From positions 787 to 64,786 of the forward strand of contig JAGLZA010000099.1 in assembly GCA_023131835.1 (NCBI GenBank): 64,000 nucleotides of DNA, read 5' to 3'. Under the pieces are notes generated by a model. It was not told the origin of the DNA. It saw only the letters and a program-made list of their open reading frames with translations, and made no database searches. This document shows positions 4,687 to 41,137 of this stretch, in pieces; within the stretch, counting starts at the first letter, position 1, and every line of letters begins with the position of its first letter. The position numbers and the translations under genes were made by a program. This stretch comes from a candidate division WOR-3 bacterium. Lineage in GTDB: Bacteria; Hydrothermota; UBA3072.

Positions 4687-5669
4687 TATTTCTCCATCCT
4701 CTTACCTCTTAGTATTGAAGATGGTAAACTATACATATAAAACAGACCCGCAGGGTCAACAAGATTGTCCATCAATTTTTGTAATTCCTCTTCGGATATT
4801 TTTTCTTCATTTTCGAGAGCAAATATCGATGCGATACCTGCCATGGTTCTTAGACCATGATCCTTAACTTCATCCAGAGGACCAAAACATCCTCTGCAAG
4901 ACATATTTGCATTTATACAACGCTGTCCACACCCGGCACGAGTGGAAATTCCCATGCATATAATACCCTGAGCTAAAAAGCACTTCTCCGGGTCAATTTC
5001 GATTTCATGGACTCTCTTGAATTCAGCAATCTCTAATTTCTCTGGCTTTGAATCATTCCTATCGCATTCATCACACAAGGCTTTTTTAGGAGCCAATACT
5101 GAACCTTTCTCTGGCAATTTTCCTTTTAGTATAGCAGTCACCGCATCCATAATTAAATCTTTAGGAGGAGCACAACCGGGTATATAATAATCAATCTCAA
5201 CTACCTGATCTAAGGTCTTCACCGTATCAAAGAAAAGAGGTAAGGTGAGTTCCCCTTCAGCGATTTGTGTCTTTACTTTGGGTAATATGCTTTTCGGGTT
5301 ATTTGTAGATTCTGTTGTTTTATATACTCTTTCGAAGATTCCATCCCTATCCGAAAAGTTTGCCAATCCGGGAATTCCCCCTATATGAGCACAACTGCCA
5401 AACGCAATAACCAACCCGGATTTTTCACGAAGGAGCTTTACCATCTCTTCTTGCTCTTCAGTCCTGACTGCTCCGTTTATAAAGCTGACGGTTAACTCCT
5501 TGTCTTTCATATTTTCCACATCTTTTCTTTTAAAATCAAGTGCTACTGGCCAGAATACTATATCGACAGCATCTACGACTTCTAATAAATCTTCCGCAAG
5601 GTCCACAACTGCTTCCTCACAACCACCGCATGATGCACACCAGTAAAAAGCGACCTTTGGTTTTGTCAT
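4686..5669 (-). CDS. mvhG: [NiFe]-hydrogenase small subunit, group 3 (MvhG-like)
   Basis: N-terminal VAFYWCASCGGCEE plus further Cys clusters (GSCAHIGG, CxxC). The gene abuts and overlaps the large subunit gene. Confidence 0.8.
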   Translation of the reverse strand: MTKPKVAFYWCASCGGCEEAVVDLAEDLLEVVDAVDIVFWPVALDFKRKDVENMKDKELTVSFINGAVRTEEQEEMVKLLREKSGLVIAFGSCAHIGGIPGLANFSDRDGIFERVYKTTESTNNPKSILPKVKTQIAEGELTLPLFFDTVKTLDQVVEIDYYIPGCAPPKDLIMDAVTAILKGKLPEKGSVLAPKKALCDECDRNDSKPEKLEIAEFKRVHEIEIDPEKCFLAQGIICMGISTRAGCGQRCINANMSCRGCFGPLDEVKDHGLRTMAGIASIFALENEEKISEEELQKLMDNLVDPAGLFYMYSLPSSILRGKRMEK

Positions 5670-5670
5670 A

Positions 5671-6078
5671 TCACCGTCCTAATTTGATAGGTCCTAATTT
5701 TAACATCTCATCATAGAATCCATTCATTGCATCACAGAGCTTTGTGATTTCACCAGTATCAATCCATTCAATTCTTACTCTTTCTGGTTCAATATTAAAT
5801 TGGGATAATACCATCTTAAGTAATAGAACTCTGCGTAATGTTTTATAATTACCATCATGTTTACATTCACCAAGAGAGCATGCACAGATAAGAACTCCCC
5901 AGGCGCCGTATTCAAATGCCTGTAATACTAATTCTAGACCTACTCGTCCTGTGCACATAGTGACAATGGACTTATTCTCTTCCTCAGTGGGAAAATTACT
6001 CAGCTTTAACCCCGGATGTACTGACCAATTACAACAGAATGTTGTTATCTTTGCTCTTTCGGCTGTTGAATTATTAAT
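5671..6078 (-). CDS. mvhD: Methyl-viologen-reducing hydrogenase delta subunit (MvhD/FlpD family); probable AUU start
   Basis: The track ORF (M at 5958) is internal. The frame is open upstream to a stop at 6100-6102 and encodes ...ITTFCCNWSVHPGLKLS...MCTGRV, which gives the MvhD CNWC and C[ST]GRV motifs. There is no ATG/GTG/TTG in that stretch, but a GGAGG (6089-6085) lies 6 nt upstream of an ATT (6078-6076). Confidence 0.65.
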   Translation of the reverse strand: MNNSTAERAKITTFCCNWSVHPGLKLSNFPTEEENKSIVTMCTGRVGLELVLQAFEYGAWGVLICACSLGECKHDGNYKTLRRVLLLKMVLSQFNIEPERVRIEWIDTGEITKLCDAMNGFYDEMLKLGPIKLGR

Positions 6079-6637
6079 TTGTAACCTCCAGGATTTTTCT
6101 TATTTCGGTAAGTAATTCTTTTTGAGAGACTTTATATCCTTCCTCTAATTTTCTTGCACCAGAAGGACATGCTGCAATACAAACACCACAACCCTCACAG
6201 GTAGACTTATCCACACTGGCTTTCTTTTTACCCCCCTCTTCTTCCTCTAATGAAGTAGCCTCTGTTTTGCAAACCGATACACATACTCCACATCCGCTAC
6301 AAATTTCTTCATCAACCAATGCTGTAGTACCTTCAACATCAAAACCGGCCTCGATTAAAGTTTTTCTTGCATCGGTTATAATCTCTGTTACAGAAATATT
6401 AGCCGAACAACTATTTTCACAAAGTCTACAATAAAAACATTCAAATATTTTCCTGGAAATCTCCTCTGTTGGTTCAATAGCACCAGTCAATAATCCGTAA
6501 ATCAATATTAATTTACCACGCGGACTATCAGATTCCCAACTGGATATCTTAAATAAATGGCAATTTTCATAGCAATAACCACACCTTATACAAATATTTA
6601 ACTCTGATTCCCAGGGTTTTAAATACTTAACTTCCAT
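6074..6637 (-). CDS. Fe-S cluster protein: HdrC/GlpC-like N-terminal Cys-rich domain plus two 4Fe-4S ferredoxin motifs
   Basis: CIRCGYCYENC and CFYCRLCENSC, then CSGCGVCVSVC and CEGCGVCIAACP. The N-terminal ~100 aa are about 60% identical to the N-terminus of the CCG-domain protein at 16093-17148. It is the first gene of the hydrogenase operon. Confidence 0.7.
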   Translation of the reverse strand: MEVKYLKPWESELNICIRCGYCYENCHLFKISSWESDSPRGKLILIYGLLTGAIEPTEEISRKIFECFYCRLCENSCSANISVTEIITDARKTLIEAGFDVEGTTALVDEEICSGCGVCVSVCKTEATSLEEEEGGKKKASVDKSTCEGCGVCIAACPSGARKLEEGYKVSQKELLTEIRKILEVTN

Positions 6638-6813
6638 TGCTTATTCTCCATTTATGGCTATTTATCATCCGGGATCCTCCTATTTTGGAGCTCACATATA
6701 ATAAATATTTTATATAAAACAAAGTCTATATTTTTCATTTTATCTATCTACCTAAAATATATAATAAACAATAATATTGTTATATAAAAAAAATGCAATA
6801 GATAATATAAATT

Positions 6814-7115
6814 GGAGTTTCATCATTTTTTATATAGAAGCCTACAAATCTCCGGTTAAGAAAGCGAGGACTTGCCGTTTAGAAATCCTCTCGGAGGCCG
6901 AGCGGGCATGGTTCCTTGATTTCCTTGGAAATCAAGGGGAGCGAGGCCGAGAGCGGAAGCAGCGATTTCCTCGCCGGGGAAATCGACTGCGGTTTATGAA
7001 CGGCAAGTCCTCGCGACTTTTTGTTTGTAATCGCAAGTATCTACTTGTTAATTCGCTGTAAGGTTTGATATTCCTACCTTAAGAAAATCTAAGCGGTAAA
7101 AAATGATGAAACTCC
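6814..7115. mobile_element. MITE-like element with ~18-bp terminal inverted repeats (GGAGTTTCATCATTTTTT ... AAAAAATGATGAAACTCC) and internal 16-bp inverted repeat (GCGAGGACTTGCCGTT / AACGGCAAGTCCTCGC)
   Basis: Perfect TIRs are read directly from the sequence, and the element is intergenic and non-coding. It shares its termini with the elements at 44586-44910 and 51106-51373. Confidence 0.7.
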
Positions 7116-7309
7116 AAATAATATAAAATATTTTTTGAATACTTTAGTGTTCGGGCAAGTCCCTTTTTACTCGATATCAGAAAATGCTAATAGTTATGAA
7201 TTATAGAATAATCAGATAATTCTATATTCTTACGGTTCATACAAAAGAAGATCTGTCAGTATTAATAAACCTTTTACTCTTTGTTTACACTATAATTTTT
7301 ATTCGCTCC

Positions 7310-8647
7310 TCACGGAATTTTTGCTACAACTTTACGTAAATTTGGATTCTTCTCACATTCTTTTTCAAATGCTTTATCGCGAAGGGAATTTCTATAATGT
7401 GGTAACTGAAACCTGTAAGTGAATCTTACTTTCCTACCCTTAGACTCTTCATAAAGTGCAACAACATCCTCTATAAAAACCCTTTCTTCATCTGTTGGGA
7501 TGACAAAAACCTTAACCTTTGAGTTTTTTGCACTAATATCGCATTCTGCGTTTCTTGTTTGAGCAATTTCATTTTTCTCCTTATCATATTCAATACCCAT
7601 AAATTCAAATCCGTCTAACGCCTTTGCCCTGATGATACTACTCTTTTCACCAACTCCGGCAGTAAAAACAACAGCGTCAATTCCTCCAAGCGCTGCTACA
7701 TATGCACCAATATACTTTTTAATCCTGTAACTCTCCATTTCTATAGCAAGTCTTGCTCTTTCATCTCCTTTTGCTGCTTCGGTTTCCACATCACGCCTAT
7801 CAATATACTTACCAGTTATACCTATGATTCCGGACTTCTTATTAAGTATTGAATCCATTTCTTTCGGTGTATAGCCTTCCTTTTCCATTATGAAGAAATC
7901 AATAGCCACATCATGGTCACCTGCTCTTGTTCCCATTATCATTCCTTCTAAAGGCGTAAATCCCATACTTGTATCATAGGATACACCAAATTTTACAGCA
8001 TTCAAAGATACACCATTGCCAATATGACATATTACAAGATTGCATTTAAAAGGGTCCTTACCTAGAAGAACAGCCGCCCTTCTGGAAACATATATAAACG
8101 ATGTGCCATGAAATCCATATCTCCTGATTTTATACTTCTCATACCATTGGTAAGGTAGAGCATACATAAACACGTGCTCTGTCATAGTTTGATGCCATGC
8201 CGTATCCATAATCGCCATATGCGGAACATCCGGAAGTAATTCTCTCGCTGCTTCAATTCCAAGGATGTTGGGTGGATTATGGAGTGGAGCCAAAGATATC
8301 AATTCCTTAAATGACATGAGGACCGCATCATTAATAATTACAGATTTAGCAAATCTTTCACCACCATGAACAACGCGATGTCCAACTGCAGAAATCAGTG
8401 ATAGATCTTTGATAACACCACTCTCCGGAGATGTAAGTATATCAACAACAAATTTGATTGCTTCACGGTGATTGGGACATTCAAGTTCAATTTTCACCTT
8501 GGCCTGTCCAGGAACTTCATGTGTACAAAAAGAACCGTCAAGTCCAACTCTTTCAACAACACCACTTGCTATAGTTTCCTTTCTATCCCAGTCGTACAGT
8601 CTGTACTTTACAGAGGAACTTCCACAATTAAGACATAATATAATCAT
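7310..8647 (-). CDS. ackA: Acetate kinase
   Basis: N-terminal ILCLNCGSSSVKYRLY, HGTSF, and a C-terminal VIPTDEE motif. It has a ~45-aa C-terminal extension relative to typical AckA. Confidence 0.85.
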   Translation of the reverse strand: MIILCLNCGSSSVKYRLYDWDRKETIASGVVERVGLDGSFCTHEVPGQAKVKIELECPNHREAIKFVVDILTSPESGVIKDLSLISAVGHRVVHGGERFAKSVIINDAVLMSFKELISLAPLHNPPNILGIEAARELLPDVPHMAIMDTAWHQTMTEHVFMYALPYQWYEKYKIRRYGFHGTSFIYVSRRAAVLLGKDPFKCNLVICHIGNGVSLNAVKFGVSYDTSMGFTPLEGMIMGTRAGDHDVAIDFFIMEKEGYTPKEMDSILNKKSGIIGITGKYIDRRDVETEAAKGDERARLAIEMESYRIKKYIGAYVAALGGIDAVVFTAGVGEKSSIIRAKALDGFEFMGIEYDKEKNEIAQTRNAECDISAKNSKVKVFVIPTDEERVFIEDVVALYEESKGRKVRFTYRFQLPHYRNSLRDKAFEKECEKNPNLRKVVAKIP

Positions 8648-8661
8648 ATTATTTCTTGATT

Positions 8662-10395
8662 TTATGCATTAGGCATCTTTATAAAACCATTTCTCATCAA
8701 AGATTTTGTTTCTTCCCGAGCATTTCTTATAGTAATCTCAGCCTTCCTGTACAACTCCTCTTCAGAAATCTTTAACCTGGCAACACCCTGCTCTATTGCC
8801 TTCATACCAACAGCAGTTGCCTCCCTTGGATAAACTTCCCACTCATCCATTGTTGGAACTATATATTCTTCAGAAAGACCTTTGTCTTCGGCACATTTTG
8901 CCAGTTCAGCAGCAGCAGCAATACACATCTCATCAGTTATTGTTTTTGCCATTACATCTAAAGCACCTCTGAAGATACCTGGAAATCCTAGTGAATTATT
9001 AACCTGATTGGGAAAATCCGATCTACCTGTTGCAACTATTCTTGCACCAGCTTTCTTTGCTTCCCATGGCCATATCTCAGGAACAGGATTGGCACAGGCA
9101 AAGACTACTGCATCATCTGCCATTAAACTTACCCATTCTGGTTTAATAGTACCAGGACCAGATCGTGAAAGCGCAATACAGACATTTGCATCTTTCATTG
9201 CCTCGGGTATTCTTCCTTTTCTACCCTCAGCATTAGATATCTGACACATATTCCATTTCTCTTTCAAATCTTTAAGATCCTTCCTTTCTTTATTCAGAAT
9301 CCCCTTACTGTCTACCATAATAATATTCTGGGGATTAACACCAGCTGCAATTATAACTCTTGAGATAGCAATATTTGAGGCACCTGCACCTACCATTGTT
9401 ATCTTTGCTTCACTGAGTCCTATGTTTATAATCTTGAGCGCATTTATCAACCCGGCCAGAGTTACTGCTGCCGTTCCCTGCTGGTCATCATGCCAGACCG
9501 GAATGTCCATTTCTTTCCGCAGTTTATCTAATATATAGAAACATTTTGGCTTAGCGATATCTTCTAAATTTATCCCACCAAAGGTAGGTGCTAACCATTT
9601 ACATGCGGTAATTATTTCATCCGGATCCTTGGTATCCAGCATTATAGGAAAAGCATCCACCCCACCCAAGTATTTAAAAAGGATTGCCTTACCTTCCATT
9701 ACAGGTAGACCAGCCTCCGGTCCTATATCACCAAGCCCTAAAACTCTCGTGCCATCGGATACAATGGCAACGAGATTTCCCTTATTTGTGTGTTCATAGA
9801 CCTTTTCCGGGTTCTTACTAATATCACGGCAAGGTTCGGCAACTCCAGGTGTATACCATATTGCAAAATCATTAAAATCTCTAATGCAGCATTTAGGAAT
9901 AACCGAAATTTTTCCACGATAAAAAGGATGTAGTGTCATGGCATCTTCACCTGGTTTATTTGCTTTAGCAAGAAGTTCTTCAAGAGATACAGTCTTTGTA
10001 AGAGTCTCTATCCTGGCTAAGAGCGTACTTGGCGAAACAGGTTTTTCTAAAAAATTATCTACGGGTAAGAGTTGTGTTCCTGCTATTTCAGAAAAGTCCA
10101 TTTTCATAACTTCCTGTATACTGGATATGATCAATATTGGGATTTTAGAACAACTAAAATACGGAGATTTTCTATCAGGATTTCTTAGCTTATTTACAAC
10201 TTCCAAACCAGCCGTAATATGCTCCATCATAATATCCAGTACAATTAAGTCAGGCATAATCTCCTTTACATTTTCGAGAGCCTCTTTTGCTGAACTTGCA
10301 CAGGCACATTCATAAGAATTGCTTTCCAGTATTGTCCTGGTTGCAAGTACAAAATCCGGGTCATCATCAACAATAAGGATTTTCTTTTTATCCAT
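8662..10395 (-). CDS. Response-regulator receiver domain fused to NAD(P)-dependent malic enzyme
   Basis: The N-terminal ~120 aa form a REC domain (KILIVDDDPDFV...DLIVLDIMM). The remainder carries malic enzyme motifs (IWYTPGVAEPC, GKAILFK, GGINLEDIAKPKCF, GAGASNIAI) in a single ORF. Confidence 0.8.
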   Translation of the reverse strand: MDKKKILIVDDDPDFVLATRTILESNSYECACASSAKEALENVKEIMPDLIVLDIMMEHITAGLEVVNKLRNPDRKSPYFSCSKIPILIISSIQEVMKMDFSEIAGTQLLPVDNFLEKPVSPSTLLARIETLTKTVSLEELLAKANKPGEDAMTLHPFYRGKISVIPKCCIRDFNDFAIWYTPGVAEPCRDISKNPEKVYEHTNKGNLVAIVSDGTRVLGLGDIGPEAGLPVMEGKAILFKYLGGVDAFPIMLDTKDPDEIITACKWLAPTFGGINLEDIAKPKCFYILDKLRKEMDIPVWHDDQQGTAAVTLAGLINALKIINIGLSEAKITMVGAGASNIAISRVIIAAGVNPQNIIMVDSKGILNKERKDLKDLKEKWNMCQISNAEGRKGRIPEAMKDANVCIALSRSGPGTIKPEWVSLMADDAVVFACANPVPEIWPWEAKKAGARIVATGRSDFPNQVNNSLGFPGIFRGALDVMAKTITDEMCIAAAAELAKCAEDKGLSEEYIVPTMDEWEVYPREATAVGMKAIEQGVARLKISEEELYRKAEITIRNAREETKSLMRNGFIKMPNA

Positions 10396-10561
10396 TTTTA
10401 CCTCCTAAATTTTAGTAAAAGTAAGCTATAAAAAGTTCTAAAAACTTTAACCCTTCTGTGTCTGCCTTTAACGTCATTCTACAGGGAGCTAATACTCCTA
10501 TGACTATTGATATTATTTGCGTATCAGCTAAATTCAACAAAATCTTATTACTCTTATCAGT

Positions 10562-11350
10562 CTAAACATATTGTTGTATTTTCTTCAGTAGAACTTCAGG
10601 TTTTATAGGCTTGGGAATCAACTCATCCACCTTGTGAGTAGCAGCTATAGTATGGACAAAATCGGGCTTTCTGAACTGCTTATCAAGGGTTGTCACGATA
10701 AGAATGGGTATATTGTATGTCTGAGCATTCGTTTTTAATTCACGAGATACCGTAAAGCCATCTTTATCGGGAAGCATTACATCTATTATAATAAGATCGG
10801 GAGTCATTGCTTTTACCATTCTAATCCCTCCATGACCAGTATCTGCAGTCTGTACCTCATAATTGTTTGCTTCCAGCACCAAACGCATAGAGCGCACGAA
10901 ATCACGGTCACTATCAATAAAAAGAATTTTTTTCTTCTCTGAGGGTTCAGATACAGTAATCTCTCTGCGAGTGATTAATGCATACACCCTGGCAAGTAAA
11001 TCTTTATAATCGATAGGTTTTTCAGCAAAATCATCTGCCTTATGGTGTAGCGCAATCTTCTCAGCATATTTTTCTCCTTCTGTTTCAGTACTAACCGAAG
11101 TCAGAACAAGAATTGGTATTTCAAAGAAGTCTGTGCTCTCTTTAAATTCACTACAAAGTGAAAATCCATCCTGGCCAGGGAGCATTATATCCAGAATAAT
11201 CAGGTCTGGTTTCTCTTTTTTTAGCCTGAGTCGGGCTGATCTACTATCATTGGCTATGACTACTTCGTATCCTTTGTTTTCCAGTATCTTAGTTGTAGCT
11301 GTACAAAAATCTATATCGTCATCAACAATTAAGATCTTTGCTCCTTTCAT
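10562..11350 (-). CDS. Response regulator with two tandem receiver domains and no output domain
   Basis: Two REC units (KILIVDDDIDF...LIILDIMLPGQDG and KILFIDSDRDF...LIIIDVMLPDKDG) in 262 aa. The start overlaps the upstream gene by 4 nt. Confidence 0.8.
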   Translation of the reverse strand: MKGAKILIVDDDIDFCTATTKILENKGYEVVIANDSRSARLRLKKEKPDLIILDIMLPGQDGFSLCSEFKESTDFFEIPILVLTSVSTETEGEKYAEKIALHHKADDFAEKPIDYKDLLARVYALITRREITVSEPSEKKKILFIDSDRDFVRSMRLVLEANNYEVQTADTGHGGIRMVKAMTPDLIIIDVMLPDKDGFTVSRELKTNAQTYNIPILIVTTLDKQFRKPDFVHTIAATHKVDELIPKPIKPEVLLKKIQQYV

Positions 11351-12450
11351 TTTTTCACCTCCTTGTTTTTCACCCGGGGTAAAAATACAGTAAAAGTACT
11401 TCCTTTCCCAGGTTCACTTATCACCTTGATAGTACCATAATGAGCATCTATTATCTTCTTTACAATAGATAATCCTAAACCGGTACCACCAGTTCTTTTT
11501 GTTTTCTGATCCTTGGTTTGATAAAACTGCTCGAAGATAAAGGGTAATTCCTCAACTTTGATCCCCACACCATTATCAGAAATATCTACTACAATATTCT
11601 CATTTTCTTCTTTCACATTGATTGTGAGAGACCCCCCATCTTTTCCATACTCTATTCCATTATCCAGTAGGTTTAAAAATGCCTGCTTTAAAGTTTCCCT
11701 GTCGCCAAGAACCATTGGCAAATCCATTGGAACATCCATTTTCAAGTTAATGTTTTTCTGTTTTGCTAATGTCTTAACTAAATTCAAAGCTTCAGTAAGA
11801 ATTGGAATCAATTCTACTGGTTCTAATTTATCTACGATTCTATTAGAATCTATTTTTGATAGGTTAAGCCAATCTTTGATTAACATCAAAAGTTCATCAA
11901 TCCTAATCTTTGACCTCTCTAACATTTGCCTTTGCTCTTTTGTAACTTCGCCTGCCATTCCTCCCAAAATTACTTCAAAATATTCCTGTACGGCTACAAG
12001 TGGCGTTCTTAGTTGATGTGAAACCATACTGATAAATCCTTCTCTCATTTTTTGTAATCGATGAACTTCAATAAGAGAATTTCTCTTCTCAAGAGCCCTT
12101 TTTGTGATTATTCTTAGTTCATCAGGCGTAAATGGTTTTGGTAAAAAATCATATGCGCCTTTTTTCATCACTTCGACTGCTGAATCTATTGTTGCATAAC
12201 CTGTAATAACTATTAAGACAATTTCCGGATCGATTTTCCTAATCTCTTCAAGGACTTCCATACCACTCATTCCTGGCATTTTGAGATCAATAAGTGCAAG
12301 GTCTGGTTTCAACTCTTTTACTTTCTGCAACCCGGTTAATCCATCTCCTGCAATATCTACAGAGTAACCATCCTTAGCATATACCTGAGTGCAGGAATCA
12401 CATATAGATTTATCATCATCAATTATCAATATTTTTGCAGTTCTTCTCAT
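11347..12450 (-). CDS. Hybrid histidine kinase: N-terminal receiver + HisKA + HATPase_c
   Basis: REC (KILIIDDDKSI...LALIDLKMPGMSG), an H-box (SMVSHQLRTPL), and N/G boxes (LLDNGIEY, GGTGLGLSIV). No transmembrane segments. Confidence 0.8.
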   Translation of the reverse strand: MRRTAKILIIDDDKSICDSCTQVYAKDGYSVDIAGDGLTGLQKVKELKPDLALIDLKMPGMSGMEVLEEIRKIDPEIVLIVITGYATIDSAVEVMKKGAYDFLPKPFTPDELRIITKRALEKRNSLIEVHRLQKMREGFISMVSHQLRTPLVAVQEYFEVILGGMAGEVTKEQRQMLERSKIRIDELLMLIKDWLNLSKIDSNRIVDKLEPVELIPILTEALNLVKTLAKQKNINLKMDVPMDLPMVLGDRETLKQAFLNLLDNGIEYGKDGGSLTINVKEENENIVVDISDNGVGIKVEELPFIFEQFYQTKDQKTKRTGGTGLGLSIVKKIIDAHYGTIKVISEPGKGSTFTVFLPRVKNKEVKK

Positions 12451-12700
12451 AATCGTCTCCCTTTTTATTTAAACTTTATTGCCTTACATTCTTTCAATCT
12501 GTTCAATTTCCATATATTCTATCAAAAATAACCCATTTCTTCTACATAAAAGTCTCTATTACTTATATGCAAATTTCATACCATAAAAAAATATCAATTT
12601 ACAGTTTTATTTAAGTGATTGGTCTTCTTTATGTTACTATAAATTTATTTAATTTATGGAAGGTTTTTCTATTGTTATTTTCATTAGTTTTTGGGGAGTT

Positions 12701-14065
12701 TTACCCCGGTTCTGGAGAATTATTTCCCGATTTTATTCCGTATTTTTTTATCTTTAAGCGTAGTGTTTTACGGTCGATTTTAAGTAATCTTGCAGCTTTA
12801 CTTTTATTCCAGTTACAAGCTTTTAGAATTTTATTTATATGTTCTTTTTCTACTGATTCAAGGGTAGAATCAGCAGGTCTTTCGCTATCTGTTCGTGATG
12901 GATAAAAGAGGTCGGCGGGTTTAATAATATCTCCCTTTGCCAGTACCACCGCTCGTTCTATGATATTTTGTAACTCCCTTACATTTCCTGGCCAGTCATA
13001 TGTGGTGAGTTCATGCATTGCTCTCTCTGAGATAGTTTTTACACCTTTCTTCCGCTTTCGATTATACCTGCCAAGGAAATAGTTTGCCAAAATAGGTATA
13101 TCGTCTCTTTGCTCCCGGAGTGGTGGAAGATGAATGGGTATTACACTTAGTCGGTAAAATAAGTCTTCGCGAAATGTCCCATCCCTTATACCTTTCACGA
13201 GATCCTTATTCGTAGCAGAAATAATTCTTACATCTATCTTGATAGTCTGAGTACTTCCGACTTTTGATATCTCCCTTTCCTGAATTGCCCGCAAGAGTTT
13301 ACCCTGAACATTTATACTGATATTTGCTATCTCGTCAAAGAATATAGTCCCTCTATTGCCAAGTTCAAATTTTCCATGCCTGGTGGCGATTGCTCCTGTA
13401 AAAGACCCCTTAACATGTCCAAACAGTTCACTCTCAAACAAGCTCTCTACAATACTACCACAATCAAAAGTAACGAAGGGTTTATTTTTCCTTTTACTAT
13501 AACGATGAATTGCCCTTGCTACAAGTTCCTTTCCTGTACCACTTTCTCCTGAGATTAGAATAGTACTATCGGTTGGTGCTATTTTTCTTATCAACTCTTT
13601 TATTTTTATCATCGCCTCACTTTCACCTATAATTCCATCCATTCTCATGTATGTGCTTAACTGTTCATGAAGATATATGTTTTCTATTGCCAATTTCCTT
13701 TTCTCTTCCGCTCTTTTAATAATTGCATTTAATTCCGGAGGAGTAAATGGTTTAGGAATGAAATCGTATGCTCCTAACTTCATCGCATTAACAGCTGATT
13801 CAACAGTAGCATATCCTGTTATAACAATCACAATAGTCTCAGGATTCTTATTCTTTATCTCACTTAGAACTTCCATGCCGCTTATACCAGGCATTTTCAA
13901 GTCCAGAATTACTATATCAAAATCTTTACTATCTAAAAGTTTGAGCCCTCTATAACCATCTCTGGCAACTGTTACATTATGTCCCTTCCTATGAAGCATC
14001 TCGTAAAGGGCATCACGCATAGCTTCTTCATCGTCTACCACCAAGATATTCAGACCTTCAGTCAT
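12701..14065 (-). CDS. Sigma-54-dependent response regulator (NtrC/DctD family: REC-AAA+-HTH)
   Basis: REC (LNILVVDDEEA), GESGTGKE Walker A, a GSFTGA-type GAFTGA motif, and a C-terminal Fis-type HTH. Start chosen at the ATG at 14065 (MTEGLN...), which overlaps the kinase stop by 8 nt. Confidence 0.8.
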   Translation of the reverse strand: MTEGLNILVVDDEEAMRDALYEMLHRKGHNVTVARDGYRGLKLLDSKDFDIVILDLKMPGISGMEVLSEIKNKNPETIVIVITGYATVESAVNAMKLGAYDFIPKPFTPPELNAIIKRAEEKRKLAIENIYLHEQLSTYMRMDGIIGESEAMIKIKELIRKIAPTDSTILISGESGTGKELVARAIHRYSKRKNKPFVTFDCGSIVESLFESELFGHVKGSFTGAIATRHGKFELGNRGTIFFDEIANISINVQGKLLRAIQEREISKVGSTQTIKIDVRIISATNKDLVKGIRDGTFREDLFYRLSVIPIHLPPLREQRDDIPILANYFLGRYNRKRKKGVKTISERAMHELTTYDWPGNVRELQNIIERAVVLAKGDIIKPADLFYPSRTDSERPADSTLESVEKEHINKILKACNWNKSKAARLLKIDRKTLRLKIKKYGIKSGNNSPEPG

Positions 14066-15974
14066 CCTTTCTCTGTATTGGCAATTGAATAGTAAATGTA
14101 GAACCCTTCCCAACCTCACTATCAATATTTATTCTACCATTATGCTTTTTAATAATCCCATAACTTATGGCAAGACCAAGACCTATTCCATGCCCTTTTG
14201 TTTTAGTTGAGAAAAATGGTTCAAACAGTTTTTTAATATTTTGTTCCGGAATTCCACACCCTGTATCAGTAAATTTCGCGTTTATGAATTTTCCATCAGA
14301 TGAGGTTTCAATTATCAATTCCCCCTGCCCTTCCATTGCCTCAGCGGCATTTAGTACAATATTCATAAATACTTGTTGTATTTGTGTTTCATCCACCATA
14401 ACAAAGGGTAGGTTTATCGAGAGCTTCTTGATTATTTTTATATTATGGAATACCGCTTGTCTTTCCACAAGTGATAAAACTTCATTAACTATTCTATTTA
14501 CATCGGAGGGTTTCATTTCAGGTTCACTTTGATGCGCAAAATCAAGAAGTCCTTTTACGATTACTTTACATCGCGTCGCTTGATTAACTATCTTCTTCAG
14601 ATTTTCTCCACGAGGATCATTCTCTTCTAAATCCTCAAGTAAAAGGTGACTATATATCAAAATACTTCCAAGAGGATTATTTATTTCATGGGCAACCCCT
14701 GCTGCTAATTGCCCTATCATAGCCAACCTCTCCGACTTCATTATTTCCTGCTTTACATATTCTTTTAATTGTTCATCTCTTTCTTTTATTGAATCTGCCA
14801 TACAGTTAAATGCCCTTGCCAGTTCTCCAATCGCATCTCCAGTCCTACATTCAACCCTATGACTTAAGTATCCTTTTGCTAATTTATCAGAGGCAGAGAC
14901 AAGAGAGCGAATAGGCCTTGTTATACTATTTGAAAGGATATTTGAAATAGCAAAAGCGACGAGTATCCCAGCAAATGTTATCATCAAAAACGTTAATAAA
15001 GTTCGTCTTCTCATATCCACAAATTTTTCTTCAAGTATTCCAACATACAGAATACCAATTACTTTATTTTTGATATTTCTTATAGGTTCATAGGCTGTTA
15101 TATACCAATTATTTACTACAAATGCTCTGCCAATCCAGGGTTCCCCTTTTATCAATACTTTATTGTTTACTTCTTTCGATACACGTGTACCAATAGCTCT
15201 AGTTCCACCCACTGTTTTTACATTGGTGGAGATACGTAGGTCTCCCTGAAAAATTGTAGCAGTTCCAATGTCTTTTTCCTTGTATGTCTCTCCACGATAT
15301 ACTATATCTTTTATCTTATCCACAATTTCATAATTTCTATTGAGCAAGTTCCCACCATATAATACCCCGATTAAGTTTCCCTTTTTATCAAGGACAGGAG
15401 CTGCTGCTTTTATCATCATTCCAGAGGTCTCTTCTTTTCCTGGTCTTGGTTTTGCTTTAGGAGTCGAAATAAGCTTCATACGAACCTGCAGAGCAAGGTC
15501 CTCTCCTTCTTTTACTAATTCATCTCTTGTGATTATCACTGTAGATGCAACTATTTCTTTCATATAAATCACCCTTCCTATGAGCTCATCATCTACCTGG
15601 TAGTCTCCATAAACTGCAGGGTTCCGCGCTCTGAAAATAACTTTACCATTACTATCTGTTAAAACGAGTATATCCAAAGATTCCCTTTTTCTAATTTTCC
15701 TTATTTCTGTTTCCAGGTTGCCTATATTATTTTTCAAGATTGCATCTTTTAAGAAGAACCGTAGAGCAGTTAAACGAATTGAAGTCCTAACTTCTTTTAT
15801 TTTATCTTTGTATATTTCTCTTGCTGAATTAAGGTCTAATTCAACCTTATTCTGAGCTTGTTTCACTATTCTATCACCAATTAGGTGTACTCCTACTGTG
15901 GTAGACACAATACCAGTAAGTATGATTACTGATATAAAATAAAAGAGTAGCTTTAATCGAAGTGAAATCTTCAT
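14058..15974 (-). CDS. Sensor histidine kinase with periplasmic double-PDC/Cache-like domain (DctB-like)
   Basis: Two TM segments flank a ~280-aa extracytoplasmic domain, followed by HAMP, an H-box (GVAHEINNPL) and HATPase (GHGIGLGL). Translationally coupled to the sigma54 regulator. Confidence 0.75.
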   Translation of the reverse strand: MKISLRLKLLFYFISVIILTGIVSTTVGVHLIGDRIVKQAQNKVELDLNSAREIYKDKIKEVRTSIRLTALRFFLKDAILKNNIGNLETEIRKIRKRESLDILVLTDSNGKVIFRARNPAVYGDYQVDDELIGRVIYMKEIVASTVIITRDELVKEGEDLALQVRMKLISTPKAKPRPGKEETSGMMIKAAAPVLDKKGNLIGVLYGGNLLNRNYEIVDKIKDIVYRGETYKEKDIGTATIFQGDLRISTNVKTVGGTRAIGTRVSKEVNNKVLIKGEPWIGRAFVVNNWYITAYEPIRNIKNKVIGILYVGILEEKFVDMRRRTLLTFLMITFAGILVAFAISNILSNSITRPIRSLVSASDKLAKGYLSHRVECRTGDAIGELARAFNCMADSIKERDEQLKEYVKQEIMKSERLAMIGQLAAGVAHEINNPLGSILIYSHLLLEDLEENDPRGENLKKIVNQATRCKVIVKGLLDFAHQSEPEMKPSDVNRIVNEVLSLVERQAVFHNIKIIKKLSINLPFVMVDETQIQQVFMNIVLNAAEAMEGQGELIIETSSDGKFINAKFTDTGCGIPEQNIKKLFEPFFSTKTKGHGIGLGLAISYGIIKKHNGRINIDSEVGKGSTFTIQLPIQRKDD

Positions 15975-16092
15975 AAGTATTTAGAGGTGATAAAAAAACA
16001 TAAACTAAGGCAGTTCTGATTTGTACTGTATGCTTGCCTATTTATTTCTATAAGAGCAAATATTCCAGCGAGCATAGATTCCTGCCTTCTTT

Positions 16093-17148
16093 CTATTTCA
16101 ACGACTCCCATACAAGGTCCAGGAGATTCTTGACCTTAAGTTTTCCGCTATTCTTACTGGCTACGTTTCCTATATTAAATTCGCAGGTCGGACAGAGTGT
16201 TACGAGAGTATCCACTCCTATTTCCAGAGCCTGGTTCACACGCTTTTCTGCAAGTTTTTCTGCAAGTGGATTATTGGTAACGAGTAATCCTCCGCCTCCT
16301 CCACAACATTCTGCTTGTTTACCACTGGTTGGTAATTCCACAAGCTCCACGCCTATCTCTTTCAATATACTTCTTGGCTCATCCACCATATCCATACCTC
16401 GGGCAACGTTACACGGGTCATGATAGGTAACCTTTGTTCCGAGTTTTTTATGCTCAACTTCAGGTAACCTTTTTACCACCTCCTCTATCACATATATAGC
16501 TTCAAGATCGGGATAATTTTTCCTGATAAAGAACACACAGGTTGTGCACATACATATAAACTTTTTGTAAGGAAATCTCCTGCGAAACTCCTCCTTATGT
16601 GTTGCAAGGTCGTCTTTATAACCAAGGACTCCAAATGGCATACCACAACAGGTCTCATCCACTACCTTCGGCTTTATACCTAACTTCTCTAAAATCTCAA
16701 GATATCTTTTTGTATCTTCTGTTCTCTCAAGGAGGCGGCATCCGAGGAGAACAGGAACTTCCCCATTTCGTACTGGAGACTTCAGTTCTTTACCAAAGAT
16801 GTTTCCTGTGTCTTTAATCTTATCTAATAATTCCAAATGAGCTTCATTTTTATAACCATCATTCACAAGATCTGTCCTCGCAGCGGTTAAAATATCAGGG
16901 ACTGATACATTGGCAGAACATCTTTCCACGCAATCTCTACAATAGGTGCACTCAAATATCTTATCTGCAATATACTCAGAAGACTCAAGTTCCCCGGAGA
17001 AAAGTCCGTATGATAGGACAATCTTACCCCTTGCTCCATCTGATTCCCATCCAAGCTCCTTATATACAGGACAACCTTCAAAACAGTAAGCACATCTAAT
17101 ACAAATATTTAACTCTGCTTCCCATTTTTTTAGTTCTTTTGCATCCAT
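16093..17148 (-). CDS. (Fe-S)-binding oxidoreductase subunit with two CCG domains (GlcF/LutA/HdrD-like)
   Basis: N-terminal CIRCAYCFEGC and CTYCRDCVERC motifs, followed by two CCG motifs (TCCGMPFGVLG, ECCGGGGG). Adjacent to the FAD oxidase gene. Confidence 0.75.
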   Translation of the reverse strand: MDAKELKKWEAELNICIRCAYCFEGCPVYKELGWESDGARGKIVLSYGLFSGELESSEYIADKIFECTYCRDCVERCSANVSVPDILTAARTDLVNDGYKNEAHLELLDKIKDTGNIFGKELKSPVRNGEVPVLLGCRLLERTEDTKRYLEILEKLGIKPKVVDETCCGMPFGVLGYKDDLATHKEEFRRRFPYKKFICMCTTCVFFIRKNYPDLEAIYVIEEVVKRLPEVEHKKLGTKVTYHDPCNVARGMDMVDEPRSILKEIGVELVELPTSGKQAECCGGGGGLLVTNNPLAEKLAEKRVNQALEIGVDTLVTLCPTCEFNIGNVASKNSGKLKVKNLLDLVWESLK

Positions 17149-20771: not shown

Positions 20772-21515
20772 TTAAACCTGAGGCACTTCAGTAATTCTTG
20801 AAAGTAATCTTTTTGAGCGATCTTCTTCTGGATTTAATTCCAGCGCTTTTTTGAGATATTTAATAGCAGCAGTGATTTCATGGAGCAGGAAGTACCCATT
20901 TCCCATCCAGAAATACAATGATGCATATTCAACCCCTGCTTCTTCAAGAATCTTAAAGTGCTCAAGTGCCTTTTCCTCATTTCCCTTGCTGTGATATGCA
21001 ATTCCAAGATGGTAATGAGCTATCTTTGACTGGGGAGAGTGCTTTATCAATTTTAGGAGATTGTCTATTGCCTCATCAATATCTCCTGTATGATAATAAC
21101 AGTGACCCAACCAGTAATATGCCATGGAAAAATCAGGATTTTTCCCAATACATTTTTCAAAATAATCAATCGCCTTCTTTATCTTACCCATCCTAAAAAA
21201 TGAAATACCAATTTCATAAAGAGTGTCAGGGAAATCAGGCAGGAGTTTGAGAGATTTTTTCTGGTTTTCAATAGCAAGTTCAATCTCCCCAATAATGTAT
21301 GCAAGATAACCAGCTAACCTGTATATATATGGATCATTTAATTCCTCACATACCTTTCGACAATTCTTGAGAGCATCCCTCATTTTACCCTTTCTTCTAA
21401 ATTCCGTTACCTGTCTCATCCAATACGCAGGTGAATCTTCCTTTATGGGAAAACCACAGTAAGGACAGAAAACAAAATCATCCCTTACTTCCTCACCACA
21501 ATTTTTACATATCAT
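20772..21515 (-). CDS. TPR-repeat protein with N-terminal zinc-ribbon
   Basis: CKNCGEEV...CPYCG zinc ribbon followed by multiple TPR-like A/Y/W-rich 34-aa repeats. Overlaps the icd stop by 1 nt. Confidence 0.6.
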   Translation of the reverse strand: MICKNCGEEVRDDFVFCPYCGFPIKEDSPAYWMRQVTEFRRKGKMRDALKNCRKVCEELNDPYIYRLAGYLAYIIGEIELAIENQKKSLKLLPDFPDTLYEIGISFFRMGKIKKAIDYFEKCIGKNPDFSMAYYWLGHCYYHTGDIDEAIDNLLKLIKHSPQSKIAHYHLGIAYHSKGNEEKALEHFKILEEAGVEYASLYFWMGNGYFLLHEITAAIKYLKKALELNPEEDRSKRLLSRITEVPQV

Positions 21516-22831: not shown

Positions 22832-22847
22832 TATCTATCCTTCCTCT

Positions 22848-23348: not shown

Positions 23349-23356
23349 AACTTCTC

Positions 23357-24610: not shown

Positions 24611-24611
24611 T

Positions 24612-25769: not shown

Positions 25770-25874
25770 TGTGTCCTCCTTTATTTTTACTAATACTAAT
25801 GTTGAATCGGGCAATGTCAAGGTATTTTTATTTCAGCATAATACCTGTGACTTATGACTGATAGCTAAATAACC

Positions 25875-27211: not shown

Positions 27212-27241
27212 TCAACCAATCATGTTTTGGGTAAAAGTTTA

Positions 27242-28805: not shown

Positions 28806-28809
28806 AGAA

Positions 28810-40181: not shown

Positions 40182-40222
40182 TTTCTTCTCTCTCTCCTTT
40201 TAATTATAATGCTTTCTTCAAT

Positions 40223-41089: not shown

Positions 41090-41137
41090 GTTGAGTCATT
41101 TTGTCTTCATTGGTCATTATCTTCCTTCCTTTTTTTA

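What the first reader, a model, noticed from the sequence alone, without database searches (positions are those of the whole stretch)
8662..12450. Receiver domain fused to malic enzyme, next to an orphan dual-REC protein and a soluble REC-histidine kinase
A single ORF joins an N-terminal CheY-like receiver (intact DD...D...S/K residues) to a full malic enzyme. Directly upstream on the same strand are a two-receiver protein with no output domain and a cytoplasmic REC-HisKA-HATPase kinase. This arrangement suggests a multistep phosphorelay whose terminal output is an enzyme's activity rather than transcription. Acetate kinase, fumarase and a DctB/DctD-like sensor pair are adjacent, which fits control of C4-dicarboxylate flux.
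Basis: partly seen in the sequence, partly recalled or inferred. Interest (0 to 1): 0.6.

Follow-up and report, generated by a model that had tools for sequence, protein, structure and literature searches.

The report
Malic enzyme with built-in phospho-receiver
An uncultured anaerobe (labelled candidate division WOR-3) encodes a central-metabolism enzyme, malic enzyme, fused to a two-component "receiver" switch and embedded in a conserved kinase cascade, so carbon flow from malate to acetate is probably switched by phosphorylation of the enzyme itself as well as by gene expression.

Summary
ORF 8662-10395(-) is one 577-aa protein. It has a CheY-like receiver with every phospho-chemistry residue intact, joined without a linker to a complete small-type malic enzyme with invariant catalytic residues.

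It is not an artefact. About 30 clusters at 90% identity, from independent metagenomes, share the architecture. GenBank hides it by calling the gene from Met99 as a 479-aa "malic enzyme".

In 7 of 7 divergent loci a soluble REC-HisKA-HATPase kinase and REC-only protein(s) lie directly upstream. A Cache sensor kinase and a sigma54 activator (5/7 as a pair) and a tailed acetate kinase (5/7) usually flank them.

Receiver sequence classes suggest this wiring: the Cache kinase acts on the sigma54 activator and on the receiver of the soluble kinase. The soluble kinase acts on the dual-REC protein and on REC-malic enzyme. A sigma54-type promoter precedes the soluble kinase gene.

No HPt domain is present. 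This is therefore a two-tier kinase cascade of the LvrB "Rec-controlled kinase" type, not a His-Asp-His-Asp phosphorelay.

The same receiver subfamily is fused to acetate kinase elsewhere, again behind an orthologous REC-kinase.

Verdict: a new variant of a known kind, a response regulator with an enzymatic output. It is untested biochemically and moderately to highly interesting.

The parts
8662..10395 (-). REC-malic enzyme fusion gene (577 aa), the terminal response regulator with an enzymatic output
   Evidence: It is a single ORF. Pfam finds Response_reg, malic and Malic_M. About 30 homologous fusion clusters exist. The AF2 model has pLDDT 87.8.
9991..10395 (-). Receiver domain (residues 1-135) of the 'MME-type' subfamily: D10/D11, D54 (codon 10234-10236), S92, F115, K118-P119. 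Hallmarks are LD(I/V)MME and LPVDxFxEKP.
   Evidence: See alignments A1, A2 and A3. In the AF2 models the receiver is a (beta-alpha)5 fold with pLDDT about 76-94 per 10-residue block in the second model.
8662..9990 (-). Small-type NAD(P)-malic enzyme domain (residues 136-577), fused at its native N-terminus. Y181, K236, E278, D279, D303/D304, G336/G338 and N466/N467 are invariant.
   Evidence: The best PDB sequence match is 1ww8 (E 6e-142). Foldseek matches 2dvm with TMt 0.91.
10401..10406 (-). Shine-Dalgarno AGGAGG, 5 nt upstream of the ATG at 10395. It supports the long (REC-containing) start.
   Evidence: The sequence was read directly. The GenBank model instead starts at Met99.
10562..11350 (-). 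Dual-REC protein (262 aa, no output domain). REC-A is canonical (D10/D11, D54). REC-B (acceptor D190) is partly degenerate, with DSD in the acidic pocket.
   Evidence: Pfam finds two Response_reg stretches. One to three copies are present in 6 of 7 related loci.
11347..12450 (-). Soluble Rec-controlled histidine kinase (REC-HisKA-HATPase_c; D55, H145). It overlaps the dual-REC gene by 4 bp.
   Evidence: It aligns collinearly with LvrB 8vc9. Orthologues lie directly upstream of the fusion in 7/7 loci and upstream of AckA-REC genes.
12568..12583 (-). Candidate sigma54 (-24/-12) promoter TGGTATGAAATTTGCA, 118 nt upstream of the REC-kinase start
   Evidence: Perfect or near-perfect elements occupy the equivalent gap in L005, L006 and L004.
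12701..14065 (-). Sigma54-dependent response regulator (REC, AAA+ with GSFTGA, HTH_8). The ORF extends to 14125, but the likely start is Met21 at 14065.
   Evidence: Its receiver is 51% identical to the receiver of the REC-kinase.
14058..15974 (-). Membrane sensor kinase (Cache_3-Cache_2/sCache_3_3, HAMP, HisKA, HATPase_c)
   Evidence: See (best match AtoS-like, below its cut-off). It is conserved upstream together with the sigma54 activator in 5/7 loci.
7310..8647 (-). Acetate kinase (445 aa), 14 nt downstream of REC-malic enzyme. It carries a conserved C-terminal tail of about 45 aa (approximately 7313-7450).
   Evidence: The tail is conserved in 6 loci. Tailed AckA follows the fusion in 5/7 related loci.

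Best explanation
REC-malic enzyme is a response regulator whose output domain is a catalytically competent NAD(P)-malic enzyme. It appears to be the terminal receiver of a conserved two-tier signalling cassette.

Step 1 (inferred). The membrane Cache-HAMP kinase senses an external cue, probably an organic acid such as lactate or malate. It phosphorylates the adjacent sigma54 activator.

Step 2 (inferred from a promoter motif). The activator fires a sigma54 promoter in front of the operon REC-kinase, dual-REC, REC-malic enzyme, AckA.

Step 3 (inferred from 51-62% identical NtrC-type receivers). The same Cache kinase also phosphorylates the receiver of the soluble REC-kinase. As in LvrB, this turns on its ATP-dependent autokinase.

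Step 4 (inferred from synteny and receiver and DHp classes). The REC-kinase has a PhoR/WalK-like DHp domain. It transfers phosphate to the PhoB-like receivers of the cassette: the dual-REC protein (competitor, sink or adaptor) and D54 of REC-malic enzyme.

Step 5 (inferred). The receiver's alpha5 helix runs, after a 5-residue break, into the enzyme's native N-terminal helix and arm. In small malic enzymes this arm lies over the dimer interface and reaches into the partner subunit, whose residues help form the active site. A phosphorylation-driven change in the receiver would therefore alter dimer geometry and activity.

The net effect would be to gate flux from malate through pyruvate and acetyl-phosphate to acetate and ATP, through the co-transcribed acetate kinase.

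What is shown: the domain content, the intact catalytic and phospho-acceptor residues, the conserved synteny and the promoter motif. What is inferred: every phosphotransfer step, the direction of the effect and the identity of the signal.
For: About 30 independent fusion clusters exist, and the receiver is conserved (mean column identity 72%).

Synteny: the REC-kinase and REC-only gene(s) lie directly upstream in 7/7 loci sharing 60-81% identity. The Cache kinase and sigma54 activator pair is present in 5/7, and the tailed AckA lies downstream in 5/7.

Sigma54 -24/-12 elements lie upstream of the REC-kinase gene (in L004, upstream of the single-REC gene that precedes it): window TGGTAT-N5-TTGCA, L005 and L006 perfect TGGCAC-N5-TTGCT, L004 CGGCAC-N5-TTGCT.

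The receivers fall into two classes. The REC-kinase receiver is 51% identical to the sigma54-activator receiver in the window and 40-63% across loci, including helix alpha1. The receiver of malic enzyme is about 36% identical to both dual-REC receivers, and all three share the alpha1 pattern DF..A....LE.

Kinase classes match. The REC-kinase is best matched by PnpS, PhoR and WalK, and the Cache kinase by AtoS and ZraS. The malic-enzyme receiver and the dual-REC are best matched by PhoB, RpaB, MtrA and YycF.

The REC-kinase aligns collinearly with LvrB, whose activation by receiver phosphorylation has been shown (PMC13269768).

Independent support: an acetate kinase-REC fusion family of 20 clusters carries the same receiver subfamily (best local identity to the receiver of malic enzyme 44%; 36-43% in alignment A3). 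An orthologous REC-kinase (45-50% identical over its full length) lies directly upstream. Unfused arrangements of REC-kinase, AckA and REC occur in L035 and L050.

Junction: alpha5 is H122-132, a break spans 133-137, the enzyme's N-terminal helix is H138-155, and LTKT(V/I)S is conserved at the junction. The role of the N-terminal arm in the dimer and active site comes from PMC7902834.
Against: No phosphotransfer or enzymology has been done for any member.

Matching kinase and receiver classes is a heuristic, not a specificity test.

The window's sigma54 element has two mismatches. Genome-wide, matches of that quality are not enriched (26 observed against 19.9 expected). L001 and L009 have only weak look-alikes, and L007 has no GG-N10-GC element.

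Locus L004 lacks the Cache kinase and AckA, and L008 lacks the Cache kinase and sigma54 pair. The upstream tier is therefore not obligatory.

The 166-nt gap between the dual-REC gene and REC-malic enzyme could hold a separate promoter. The scan for sigma70-type promoters and terminators was uninformative.

The AF2 monomer model says nothing reliable about receiver-enzyme contacts or the dimer.
Confidence: 0.55

Rival explanations
1. Feedback from acetyl-phosphate. The receiver on malic enzyme, and the one on acetate kinase in the sister family, autophosphorylates mainly from acetyl-phosphate, the intermediate made between malic enzyme and acetate kinase. The enzyme would then be throttled or boosted by the fill level of the Pta-AckA node. 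The REC-kinase would act chiefly as a phosphatase or serve the REC-only proteins. This can coexist with the best explanation.
For: Acetate kinase is co-transcribed immediately downstream (a 14-nt gap here, overlapping genes in L001) in 5/7 related loci. A Ptb/Buk-like pair is inserted just upstream of the fusion in L005 and L008. The same receiver type is fused to acetate kinase itself. By analogy, MaeB malic enzymes sense acetyl-CoA through an appended PTA-like domain (PMC7902834). Many receivers accept phosphate from acetyl-phosphate (general knowledge).
Against: A dedicated orthologous REC-kinase always accompanies these receivers, which argues for kinase-driven control. No sequence feature examined here predicts acetyl-phosphate reactivity.
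Confidence: 0.2
2. Reverse information flow. The malic enzyme domain acts as a metabolite sensor (malate, pyruvate, NAD(P)H). Its ligand state changes how readily its receiver takes phosphate from the REC-kinase. REC-malic enzyme would then compete with the dual-REC protein as a metabolite-tuned phosphate sink and reset the cascade's other outputs.
For: There are several receivers per kinase (one to three dual-REC copies plus the fusion). REC-only proteins have no evident output. In most genomes the cassette has a stand-alone receiver of this subfamily and no fused enzyme.
Against: All catalytic residues are invariant, and the enzyme part is 74-81% identical to stand-alone malic enzymes. It is therefore a working enzyme, not a degenerate sensor like the PTA domain of MaeB. 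No downstream target of the REC-only proteins is known.
Confidence: 0.12
3. Phosphorylation-independent receiver. The N-terminal domain is a structural or oligomerisation module (pseudo-receiver) with no signalling role.
For: Such receivers exist in other families (general knowledge). The beta3-alpha3 loop is atypical, with MME in place of the usual MLP.
Against: The acidic pocket (D10/D11), D54, S92, F115 and K118-P119 are invariant or nearly so across the fusion, AckA-REC and stand-alone members. A kinase gene is always adjacent.
Confidence: 0.08
4. Annotation-style reading. The real product is a 479-aa malic enzyme starting at Met99 (as in GenBank MCK4527182.1), and the upstream receiver-like sequence is untranslated or a relic.
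For: NCBI gene models for four family members start inside the receiver, giving 479-487 aa.
Against: There is no stop codon between the domains. A strong AGGAGG precedes the upstream ATG. Residues 1-98 are conserved at the protein level, with all functional residues, in about 30 clusters. A Met99 start would leave a useless half-receiver of about 35 residues on the enzyme.
Confidence: 0.03

Closest known systems
Hybrid malic enzymes (MaeB/Tme): malic enzyme with an appended PTA-like sensor domain
   Same: Both use the same small-type catalytic core (Foldseek to 6zn7 and 6zng, 41-45% identity). Both have a regulatory domain fused to it, and both tie malic enzyme activity to the acetyl-CoA and acetate node (PMC7902834).
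   Different: In MaeB the regulatory domain is C-terminal. It is a catalytically dead ligand-binding enzyme fold that binds acetyl-CoA and forms a hexamer. Here the domain is an N-terminal phospho-receiver served by a kinase. No PTA_PTB domain is present.
Response regulators with enzymatic outputs (CheB, PleD/WspR, RpfG, PorX). REC fusions to 'standard metabolic enzymes' have been noted in censuses (PMC5847659, citing Galperin 2006 and 2010).
   Same: An N-terminal receiver with intact phospho-chemistry is followed by a catalytic domain, so the activity is presumably gated by Asp phosphorylation.
   Different: The characterised outputs are signalling enzymes (methylesterase, c-di-GMP turnover, phosphodiesterase). 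I found no paper describing or testing a malic enzyme output. The two Galperin censuses could not be read.
LvrA/LvrB of Leptospira: the prototype Rec-controlled histidine kinase
   Same: The kinase at 11347-12450 has the same REC-DHp-CA architecture with no sensor domain. It aligns collinearly with LvrB (8vc9, residues 39-358 against 40-375, E 7e-19). An upstream sensor kinase is encoded nearby.
   Different: LvrB signals to LvrC, which that paper describes as an anti-sigma factor (PMC13269768). Here the candidate substrates are REC-only proteins and an enzyme-borne receiver. The family relationship is distant.
Sigma54-dependent two-component systems that control organic-acid catabolism (LurSR of Desulfovibrio, DctBD, AtoSC)
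   Same: A sensor kinase and an NtrC-type activator are encoded beside genes for a GlcD-type dehydrogenase, a CCG iron-sulfur protein and acetate kinase. A sigma54 promoter lies upstream of the regulated operon. LurR activates the lactate-to-acetate operon, which includes ack (PMC6456213).
   Different: LurS is a PAS-containing hybrid kinase, not a Cache kinase. The AtoS and AtoC equivalog cut-offs are not reached. None of these systems has a second kinase tier or an enzyme-borne receiver.
Acetate kinase-REC fusion family
   Same: It has the same receiver subfamily (LDVMMEDISAGF, LPVDxFLEKP; best local identity 44%). An orthologous REC-kinase lies directly upstream, and it belongs to the same pathway.
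   Different: The receiver is C-terminal to the enzyme. The dual-REC, Cache kinase and sigma54 genes are not adjacent in the two loci seen. I found no paper describing this fusion, though I did not search for it specifically.

Membership tests
CheY-like receiver (REC, PF00072) | Significant match to the family profile and a (beta-alpha)5 fold | tested here: met
   Pfam gives 63 bits against a cut-off of 30.2. AF2 shows five strands alternating with helices, with pLDDT about 76-94 per 10-residue block in the second model.
CheY-like receiver (REC, PF00072) | Acidic pocket, phospho-acceptor Asp, Thr/Ser, aromatic switch residue and Lys | tested here: met
   D10/D11, D54, S92, F115 and K118-P119 are present. 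D11, D54, K118 and P119 are invariant and D10 and F115 nearly so in A3; S92 is at least 90% conserved within the fusion family.
CheY-like receiver (REC, PF00072) | Actual phosphorylation on Asp by a cognate kinase or small donor | not testable with these tools
   This needs 32P or Phos-tag assays.
Small prokaryotic malic enzyme (PF00390 + PF03949) | Both family domains are present and the fold matches solved malic enzymes | tested here: met
   The match to 1ww8 has E 6e-142. Foldseek to 2dvm gives TMt 0.91, rmsd 2.5 and 53% identity.
Small prokaryotic malic enzyme (PF00390 + PF03949) | Catalytic Tyr and Lys, metal-binding Glu/Asp/Asp and a dinucleotide-binding Gly motif | tested here: met
   Y181, K236, E278, D279, D303/D304 and G336/G338 are invariant in 79 sequences. 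The assignment of roles rests on knowledge of the family.
Small prokaryotic malic enzyme (PF00390 + PF03949) | Malate decarboxylating activity and cofactor preference | not testable with these tools
   This needs an enzyme assay. NAD versus NADP was not resolved here.
Hybrid malic enzyme (MaeB) | C-terminal PTA-like acetyl-CoA-sensing domain | tested here: not met
   The protein ends at residue 577 with no PTA_PTB match. NCBIfam PRK12861 covers only positions 10-417 of 764, scoring 321 bits against a cut-off of 1178.
Rec-controlled histidine kinase (LvrB type), for 11347-12450 | REC-DHp-CA order, no sensor or membrane segment, and conserved Asp and His | tested here: met
   REC spans 7-113, HisKA 136-202 and HATPase_c 249-359 of 367 aa. 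D55 and H145 are present. The protein aligns collinearly with 8vc9.
Rec-controlled histidine kinase (LvrB type), for 11347-12450 | A continuous alpha5-alphaS coiled coil with heptad-compatible length | tested here: inconclusive
   The distance from the receiver Lys-Pro to the His is 40 or 44 residues among orthologues. No structure was modelled.
Multistep His-Asp-His-Asp phosphorelay | An HPt or Spo0B-like histidine phosphotransfer module between two receivers | tested here: not met
   Pfam found no Hpt domain in any of the nine proteins scanned between 6074 and 18584. None appears in the related loci either.
Sigma54-dependent two-component system (NtrC class), for 12701-15974 | REC, sigma54-interaction AAA+ domain with a GAFTGA-type loop, and HTH_8, plus a partner kinase | tested here: met
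   Sigma54_activat scores 229 bits and HTH_8 and REC are present. The GSFTGA loop is in the sequence. The kinase gene is adjacent and overlapping.
Sigma54-dependent two-component system (NtrC class), for 12701-15974 | A -24/-12 promoter at a target operon | tested here: inconclusive
   The candidate at 12568-12583 has GG and GC at the correct spacing. It is perfect or near-perfect in 3 of 6 related loci and weak or absent in the other 3.
AtoS/AtoC or DctB/DctD orthologues | Score above the equivalog cut-off | tested here: not met
   AtoC scores 468.7 against 714, and AtoS 256.5 against 646. No DctB or DctD model ranks among the top hits.

The most novel reading that the evidence does not exclude
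The fusion may be the visible tip of an unrecognised system for post-translational control of fermentation. In this reading, a widespread cassette of a Rec-controlled kinase plus small 'MME-type' single-domain receivers (present in Planctomycetota, Desulfobacterota, Chloroflexota, Spirochaetota, TA06, WOR-3 and others) regulates enzymes of the pyruvate, acetate and hydrogen node by direct protein contact. The two fusions, REC-malic enzyme and acetate kinase-REC, would act as Rosetta stones that name the targets. The orphan dual-REC protein would then dock on the conserved 45-residue tail of the acetate kinase, which sits exactly where the receiver is fused in the sister family.
Probability: 0.3. 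Interest if true: 0.8.

Novelty: new variant of a known kind. Interest (0 to 1): 0.62.

Why it matters
Two-component systems are known mainly as switches for transcription, motility and second messengers. Here the receiver is welded to an enzyme of central carbon metabolism. A sister family puts the same receiver on acetate kinase, the ATP-yielding step of fermentation.

If phosphorylation controls these enzymes, bacteria in anoxic sediments and digesters can re-route malate, pyruvate and acetate flux within seconds. They would do so using the same signal that induces the genes, which makes a feed-forward design.

The system is compact, consisting of one kinase and one enzyme, and it is directly testable in vitro. 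It could serve as a phospho-switchable metabolic valve for engineering.

The fusion is also invisible in GenBank, because automatic annotation starts the gene inside the receiver. Censuses based on domain architecture will therefore have missed it.

Tried and rejected
1. The first AF2 run used a 28-sequence alignment. It gave pLDDT below 50 for residues 140-253, so it was unusable for geometry. A 79-sequence alignment fixed the fold. The tool returns no coordinates and models no dimer, so no inference about the interface could be drawn.

2. The search of representatives at 50% identity with residues 1-200 showed no fusion at all. This is probably because fusions cluster under stand-alone malic enzyme representatives, so it cannot be used to count them. 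It did reveal the AckA-REC fusion.

3. I clustered the malic enzyme domains by identity to ask whether the fusions come from a single event. The result was inconclusive. The enzyme is so conserved (70-85% identity) that fusions and stand-alone enzymes interleave. An earlier neighbour-joining attempt timed out.

4. Scans for sigma70-type promoters and terminators over 6500-16200 gave no signal above shuffled controls and no terminators.

5. The sigma54 pattern is not enriched across the window. Only the position of the hit and its conservation in other loci carry weight.

6. The Galperin 2006 and 2010 censuses could not be read, and the AFDB Foldseek library was unavailable. I therefore could not verify that this architecture is absent from UniProt or InterPro.

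7. I considered a malolactic enzyme and rejected it (69.8 bits against a cut-off of 850).

8. I considered a frameshift or a two-gene artefact and rejected it. The ORF is continuous and conserved, and it has a strong ribosome-binding site.

Full report

The minus-strand ORF 8662-10395 is uninterrupted and encodes 577 aa. Pfam finds a receiver at residues 6-130 (63 bits) followed by both malic enzyme domains at 164-293 and 306-519. NCBIfam aligns residues 151-549 to the catalytic half of NADP-malic enzyme (E 1.2e-95).

The receiver has the full set of phospho-chemistry residues: D10/D11, D54, S92, the aromatic switch F115 and K118-P119. The enzyme part keeps Y181, K236, E278/D279, D303/D304, the Gly-rich dinucleotide motif and N466/N467. 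All of these are invariant in a 79-sequence alignment.

A consensus AGGAGG sits 5 nt before the ATG.
- a 262-aa protein made of two receivers, with no output domain;
- a 367-aa REC-HisKA-HATPase kinase with no room for a sensor or membrane segment;
- a Cache-HAMP kinase and a sigma54 activator;
- acetate kinase;
- a two-subunit class-I fumarase.

**It is a real, conserved but hidden family**

A search of 5.8 billion protein clusters returned about 30 clusters at 90% identity with the same three-domain architecture. They are 577-592 aa long, 60-100% identical to the window protein, and come from many independent metagenomes. Stand-alone malic enzymes of about 445 aa are 74-81% identical to the catalytic part.

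The stand-alone enzymes begin exactly where the receiver ends, at M-x-K-K-L-T-x-EELLAKAK. The receiver has therefore been grafted onto the enzyme's native N-terminus with no linker, and the junction LTKT(V/I)S is conserved.

Among 185,579 species-representative genomes, only four carry the fusion. They are labelled "bacterium", Ca. Neomarinimicrobiota and Ca. Cloacimonadota. Sequences identical to the window protein are labelled candidate division WOR-3.

GenBank models of four family members start inside the receiver. One example is MCK4527182.1, 479 aa, which starts at Met99. These models delete D10, D11, D54 and S92 and are named simply "NADP-dependent malic enzyme". That explains why the architecture is not visible in public annotation.

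No solved structure combines the two parts. Both sequence and fold searches of the PDB match only the roughly 430-residue enzyme portion, or the receiver alone. Three full-text literature searches found no description of a receiver-malic enzyme protein. A census paper does state the general point that receivers are sometimes attached to standard metabolic enzymes (PMC5847659).

**The neighbourhood is conserved, which links the genes functionally**

I examined seven loci whose fusion proteins are 60-81% identical to the window's protein.
- All seven have a REC-HisKA-HATPase kinase directly upstream. It is 47-74% identical to the window's kinase over its full length.
- All seven also have REC-only protein(s) there: one to three dual-REC copies, or single receivers.
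- Five have the Cache kinase and sigma54 activator pair upstream of that. A sixth (L004) has the activator alone.
- Five have a 445-453-aa acetate kinase immediately downstream. A sixth contig (L008) ends there.
- Two loci insert a Ptb/Buk-like pair.

The wider context here includes:
- GlcD-like and CCG-type dehydrogenase subunits;
- fumarase;
- citrate synthase, aconitase and isocitrate dehydrogenase;
- a lactate racemase gene (larA) with its maturation genes larB, larC and a putative larE;
- an Mvh-type NiFe hydrogenase.

These are the genes of anaerobic organic-acid oxidation and fermentation. LarA, citrate synthase and aconitase recur in L001 and L006.

**Inferred wiring**

The five receivers in the cluster fall into two classes.

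The receiver of the soluble kinase is 51% identical to that of the sigma54 activator. Across loci the figure is 40-63%, and the similarity includes helix alpha1, which is known to carry partner specificity. Both are NtrC-type.

The receiver on malic enzyme is about 36% identical to each receiver of the dual-REC protein. All three share the alpha1 pattern DF..A....LE and an insertion in the alpha4 region. All three are PhoB/WalR-like.

The kinases fall into classes that correspond to these. The Cache kinase is best matched by AtoS and ZraS, which partner with sigma54 activators. The soluble kinase is best matched by PnpS, PhoR and WalK.

This suggests that the Cache kinase serves both the activator and the soluble kinase. 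The soluble kinase would then serve the dual-REC protein and REC-malic enzyme.

The soluble kinase aligns collinearly with LvrB. [quoted passage not shown]

No HPt domain exists anywhere in the cluster.

**A transcriptional arm runs in parallel**

In the 250-nt gap between the activator gene and the soluble kinase gene lies TGGTATGAAATTTGCA (12568-12583). It has the GG and GC of a sigma54 promoter at the correct spacing.

The equivalent gap holds perfect TGGCAC-N5-TTGCT elements in L005 and L006, and CGGCAC-N5-TTGCT in L004. In L004 the element lies upstream of the single-REC gene that precedes the kinase. L001 and L009 have only weak look-alikes, and L007 has no GG-N10-GC element at all.

Matches of the window's quality are not enriched window-wide (26 against 19.9 expected). 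The argument rests on position and on conservation in other loci.

If this is correct, the same stimulus both induces the operon and activates its products, which is a coherent feed-forward loop. LurSR of Desulfovibrio is a precedent. It is a sigma54-dependent two-component system that activates a lactate-to-acetate operon including ack (PMC6456213).

**How the receiver could control the enzyme**

With a 79-sequence alignment, AF2 gives a confident model (pLDDT 87.8). Receiver helix alpha5 spans 122-132, a five-residue break follows, and then come the enzyme's N-terminal helix (138-155) and a low-confidence arm (156-173).

[quoted passage not shown] A receiver rigidly attached to that arm is well placed to convert a phosphorylation-induced change into a change in dimer geometry and activity. 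Typically this change is dimerisation through the alpha4-beta5-alpha5 face.

This step is inference. The direction of the effect, activation or inhibition, is unknown.

The closest functional analogue is MaeB. There, an appended PTA-like domain senses acetyl-CoA and rotates the catalytic domains (PMC7902834).

**Independent support from a sister fusion**

The closest relatives of the receiver outside the fusion are stand-alone 130-140-aa receivers. They are about 50% identical, share the hallmarks LD(I/V)MME and LPVDxFxEKP, and occur in many phyla.

Of the 76 loci recovered from species-representative genomes that carry a related receiver but no fusion, 25 also hold a full-length orthologue of the soluble kinase within 9 kb. 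This orthologue is usually adjacent to the receiver. Fifteen hold the Cache kinase and 13 the activator. The cassette is therefore widespread.

Next to it I found several kinds of energy-metabolism genes:
- formate-dehydrogenase-like and NiFe-hydrogenase genes (L025, L049);
- acetate kinase followed by a separate receiver of this type (L035, L050);
- oxaloacetate decarboxylase subunits (L050).

Most tellingly, a family of 20 clusters fuses this same receiver subfamily to the C-terminus of acetate kinase. The best local identity to the receiver of malic enzyme is 44%, and 36-43% in alignment A3. In both loci examined, an orthologous REC-kinase (45-50% identical) lies directly upstream.

Two different enzymes of one pathway carry the same receiver type and sit behind the same kinase type. 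This is strong comparative evidence that the kinase-receiver pair regulates these enzymes.

**Open points**

The role of the dual-REC protein is unknown. Its first receiver is canonical. Its second has DSD in the acidic pocket here, and the acceptor Asp is replaced by Glu in two orthologues. It could be a phosphate sink, a competitor or an adaptor.

The acetate kinase that accompanies the fusion carries a conserved tail of about 45 residues (..YRFQ..N.LR[DE]...EC..P.L..V.A). The tail sits at the position where the receiver is fused in the sister family. A docking role for REC-only proteins is an attractive guess, but it is untested.

Acetyl-phosphate as a direct phosphodonor is a serious rival or complement to kinase control.

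**Verdict**

The thing is a new variant of a known kind, a response regulator with an enzymatic output in which the output is a central-carbon enzyme. It has a well-defined and conserved signalling context and a clear experimental path.

Interest is 0.62.

Noticed in passing
P0194, P0271-P0289; loci L090 10001-11623 and L091 10001-11620: A family of 20 clusters of acetate kinase with a C-terminal receiver of the same 'MME-type' subfamily. A REC-HisKA-HATPase kinase gene lies directly upstream. Unfused arrangements of REC-kinase, AckA and REC occur in L035 and L050.
   Followed up: yes
window 7313-7450 (-), C-terminus of AckA: The acetate kinase downstream of the fusion has a conserved tail of about 45 residues (RF.YRFQ...YRNSLRD..FEKEC.KNP.LRKV.A). 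The tail is shared by the AckA of five related loci. It occupies the position where REC is fused in the AckA-REC family. Other long AckA proteins carry an unrelated 'LVLLWARNP' tail.
   Followed up: partly
window 10099-10395 (-); GenBank MCK4527182.1, MBU4445975.1, RKY52925.1, NQV19624.1: Public gene models start inside the receiver (at Met99 here). They delete residues 1-98 and name the product plain NADP-dependent malic enzyme, so the fusion is invisible in annotation.
   Followed up: yes
window 10562-10942 (-), second receiver of the dual-REC protein: REC-B has DSD instead of DDD in the acidic pocket. In two orthologues (L009 and the second copy in L007) the acceptor Asp is replaced by Glu. 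It may be a partly degenerate or constitutively 'on' receiver.
   Followed up: partly
window 12693-12707 (-): A small GGGG-TAAAACT-CCCC hairpin spans the stop codon of the sigma54 activator gene. The same sequence is present in L001 and partly in L005 and L006. Its function is unknown.
   Followed up: no
window 26111-29997 (+) and 20772-25820 (-): A lactate racemase gene larA with larB (AIRC) and larC (Ni_insertion) and a probable larE lies opposite a block of citrate synthase, split aconitase, isocitrate dehydrogenase and a TPR/zinc-ribbon protein. LarA and the TCA genes recur beside the cassette in L001 and L006.
   Followed up: partly
window 33466-44434 (-): A type I restriction-modification locus (hsdR, hsdS, hsdM) has extra genes inserted between the S and M subunit genes. 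These are a SIR2_2-domain protein, an AbiJ-N-terminal-domain protein and a Schlafen/AlbA_2-HATPase_c_4-Fic_C protein. It looks like a small defence island.
   Followed up: no
window 46628-51034 (-): A 1468-aa protein with RHS repeats. The following ORFs (44941-46565) have no Pfam match and might be a toxin tip and immunity pair.
   Followed up: no
P0256 (325 aa, metagenomic fragment): An FCD domain (the ligand-binding domain of GntR-type regulators) is directly followed by a malic enzyme N-terminal domain. It is either another regulatory fusion to malic enzyme or a gene-calling artefact.
   Followed up: no
alignment A1 columns 330-420 (window residues about 325-400): Within the fusion family, the NAD-binding domain comes in two sequence versions. 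One is the window type MVDSKGILNKERKDL. The other is a Pyrococcus-like VVDLVDGKPTILTSDMDLE type, found in P0015, P0019, P0021, P0025, P0026 and P0028. This suggests mosaic evolution or a difference in cofactor use.
   Followed up: no
window 3223-6637 (-): An Mvh-type NiFe hydrogenase (large and small subunits, MvhD/FlpD-like protein) and a polyferredoxin-like iron-sulfur protein lie directly downstream of acetate kinase. Hydrogenase or formate-dehydrogenase genes also follow the signalling cassette in L009, L025 and L049.
   Followed up: partly
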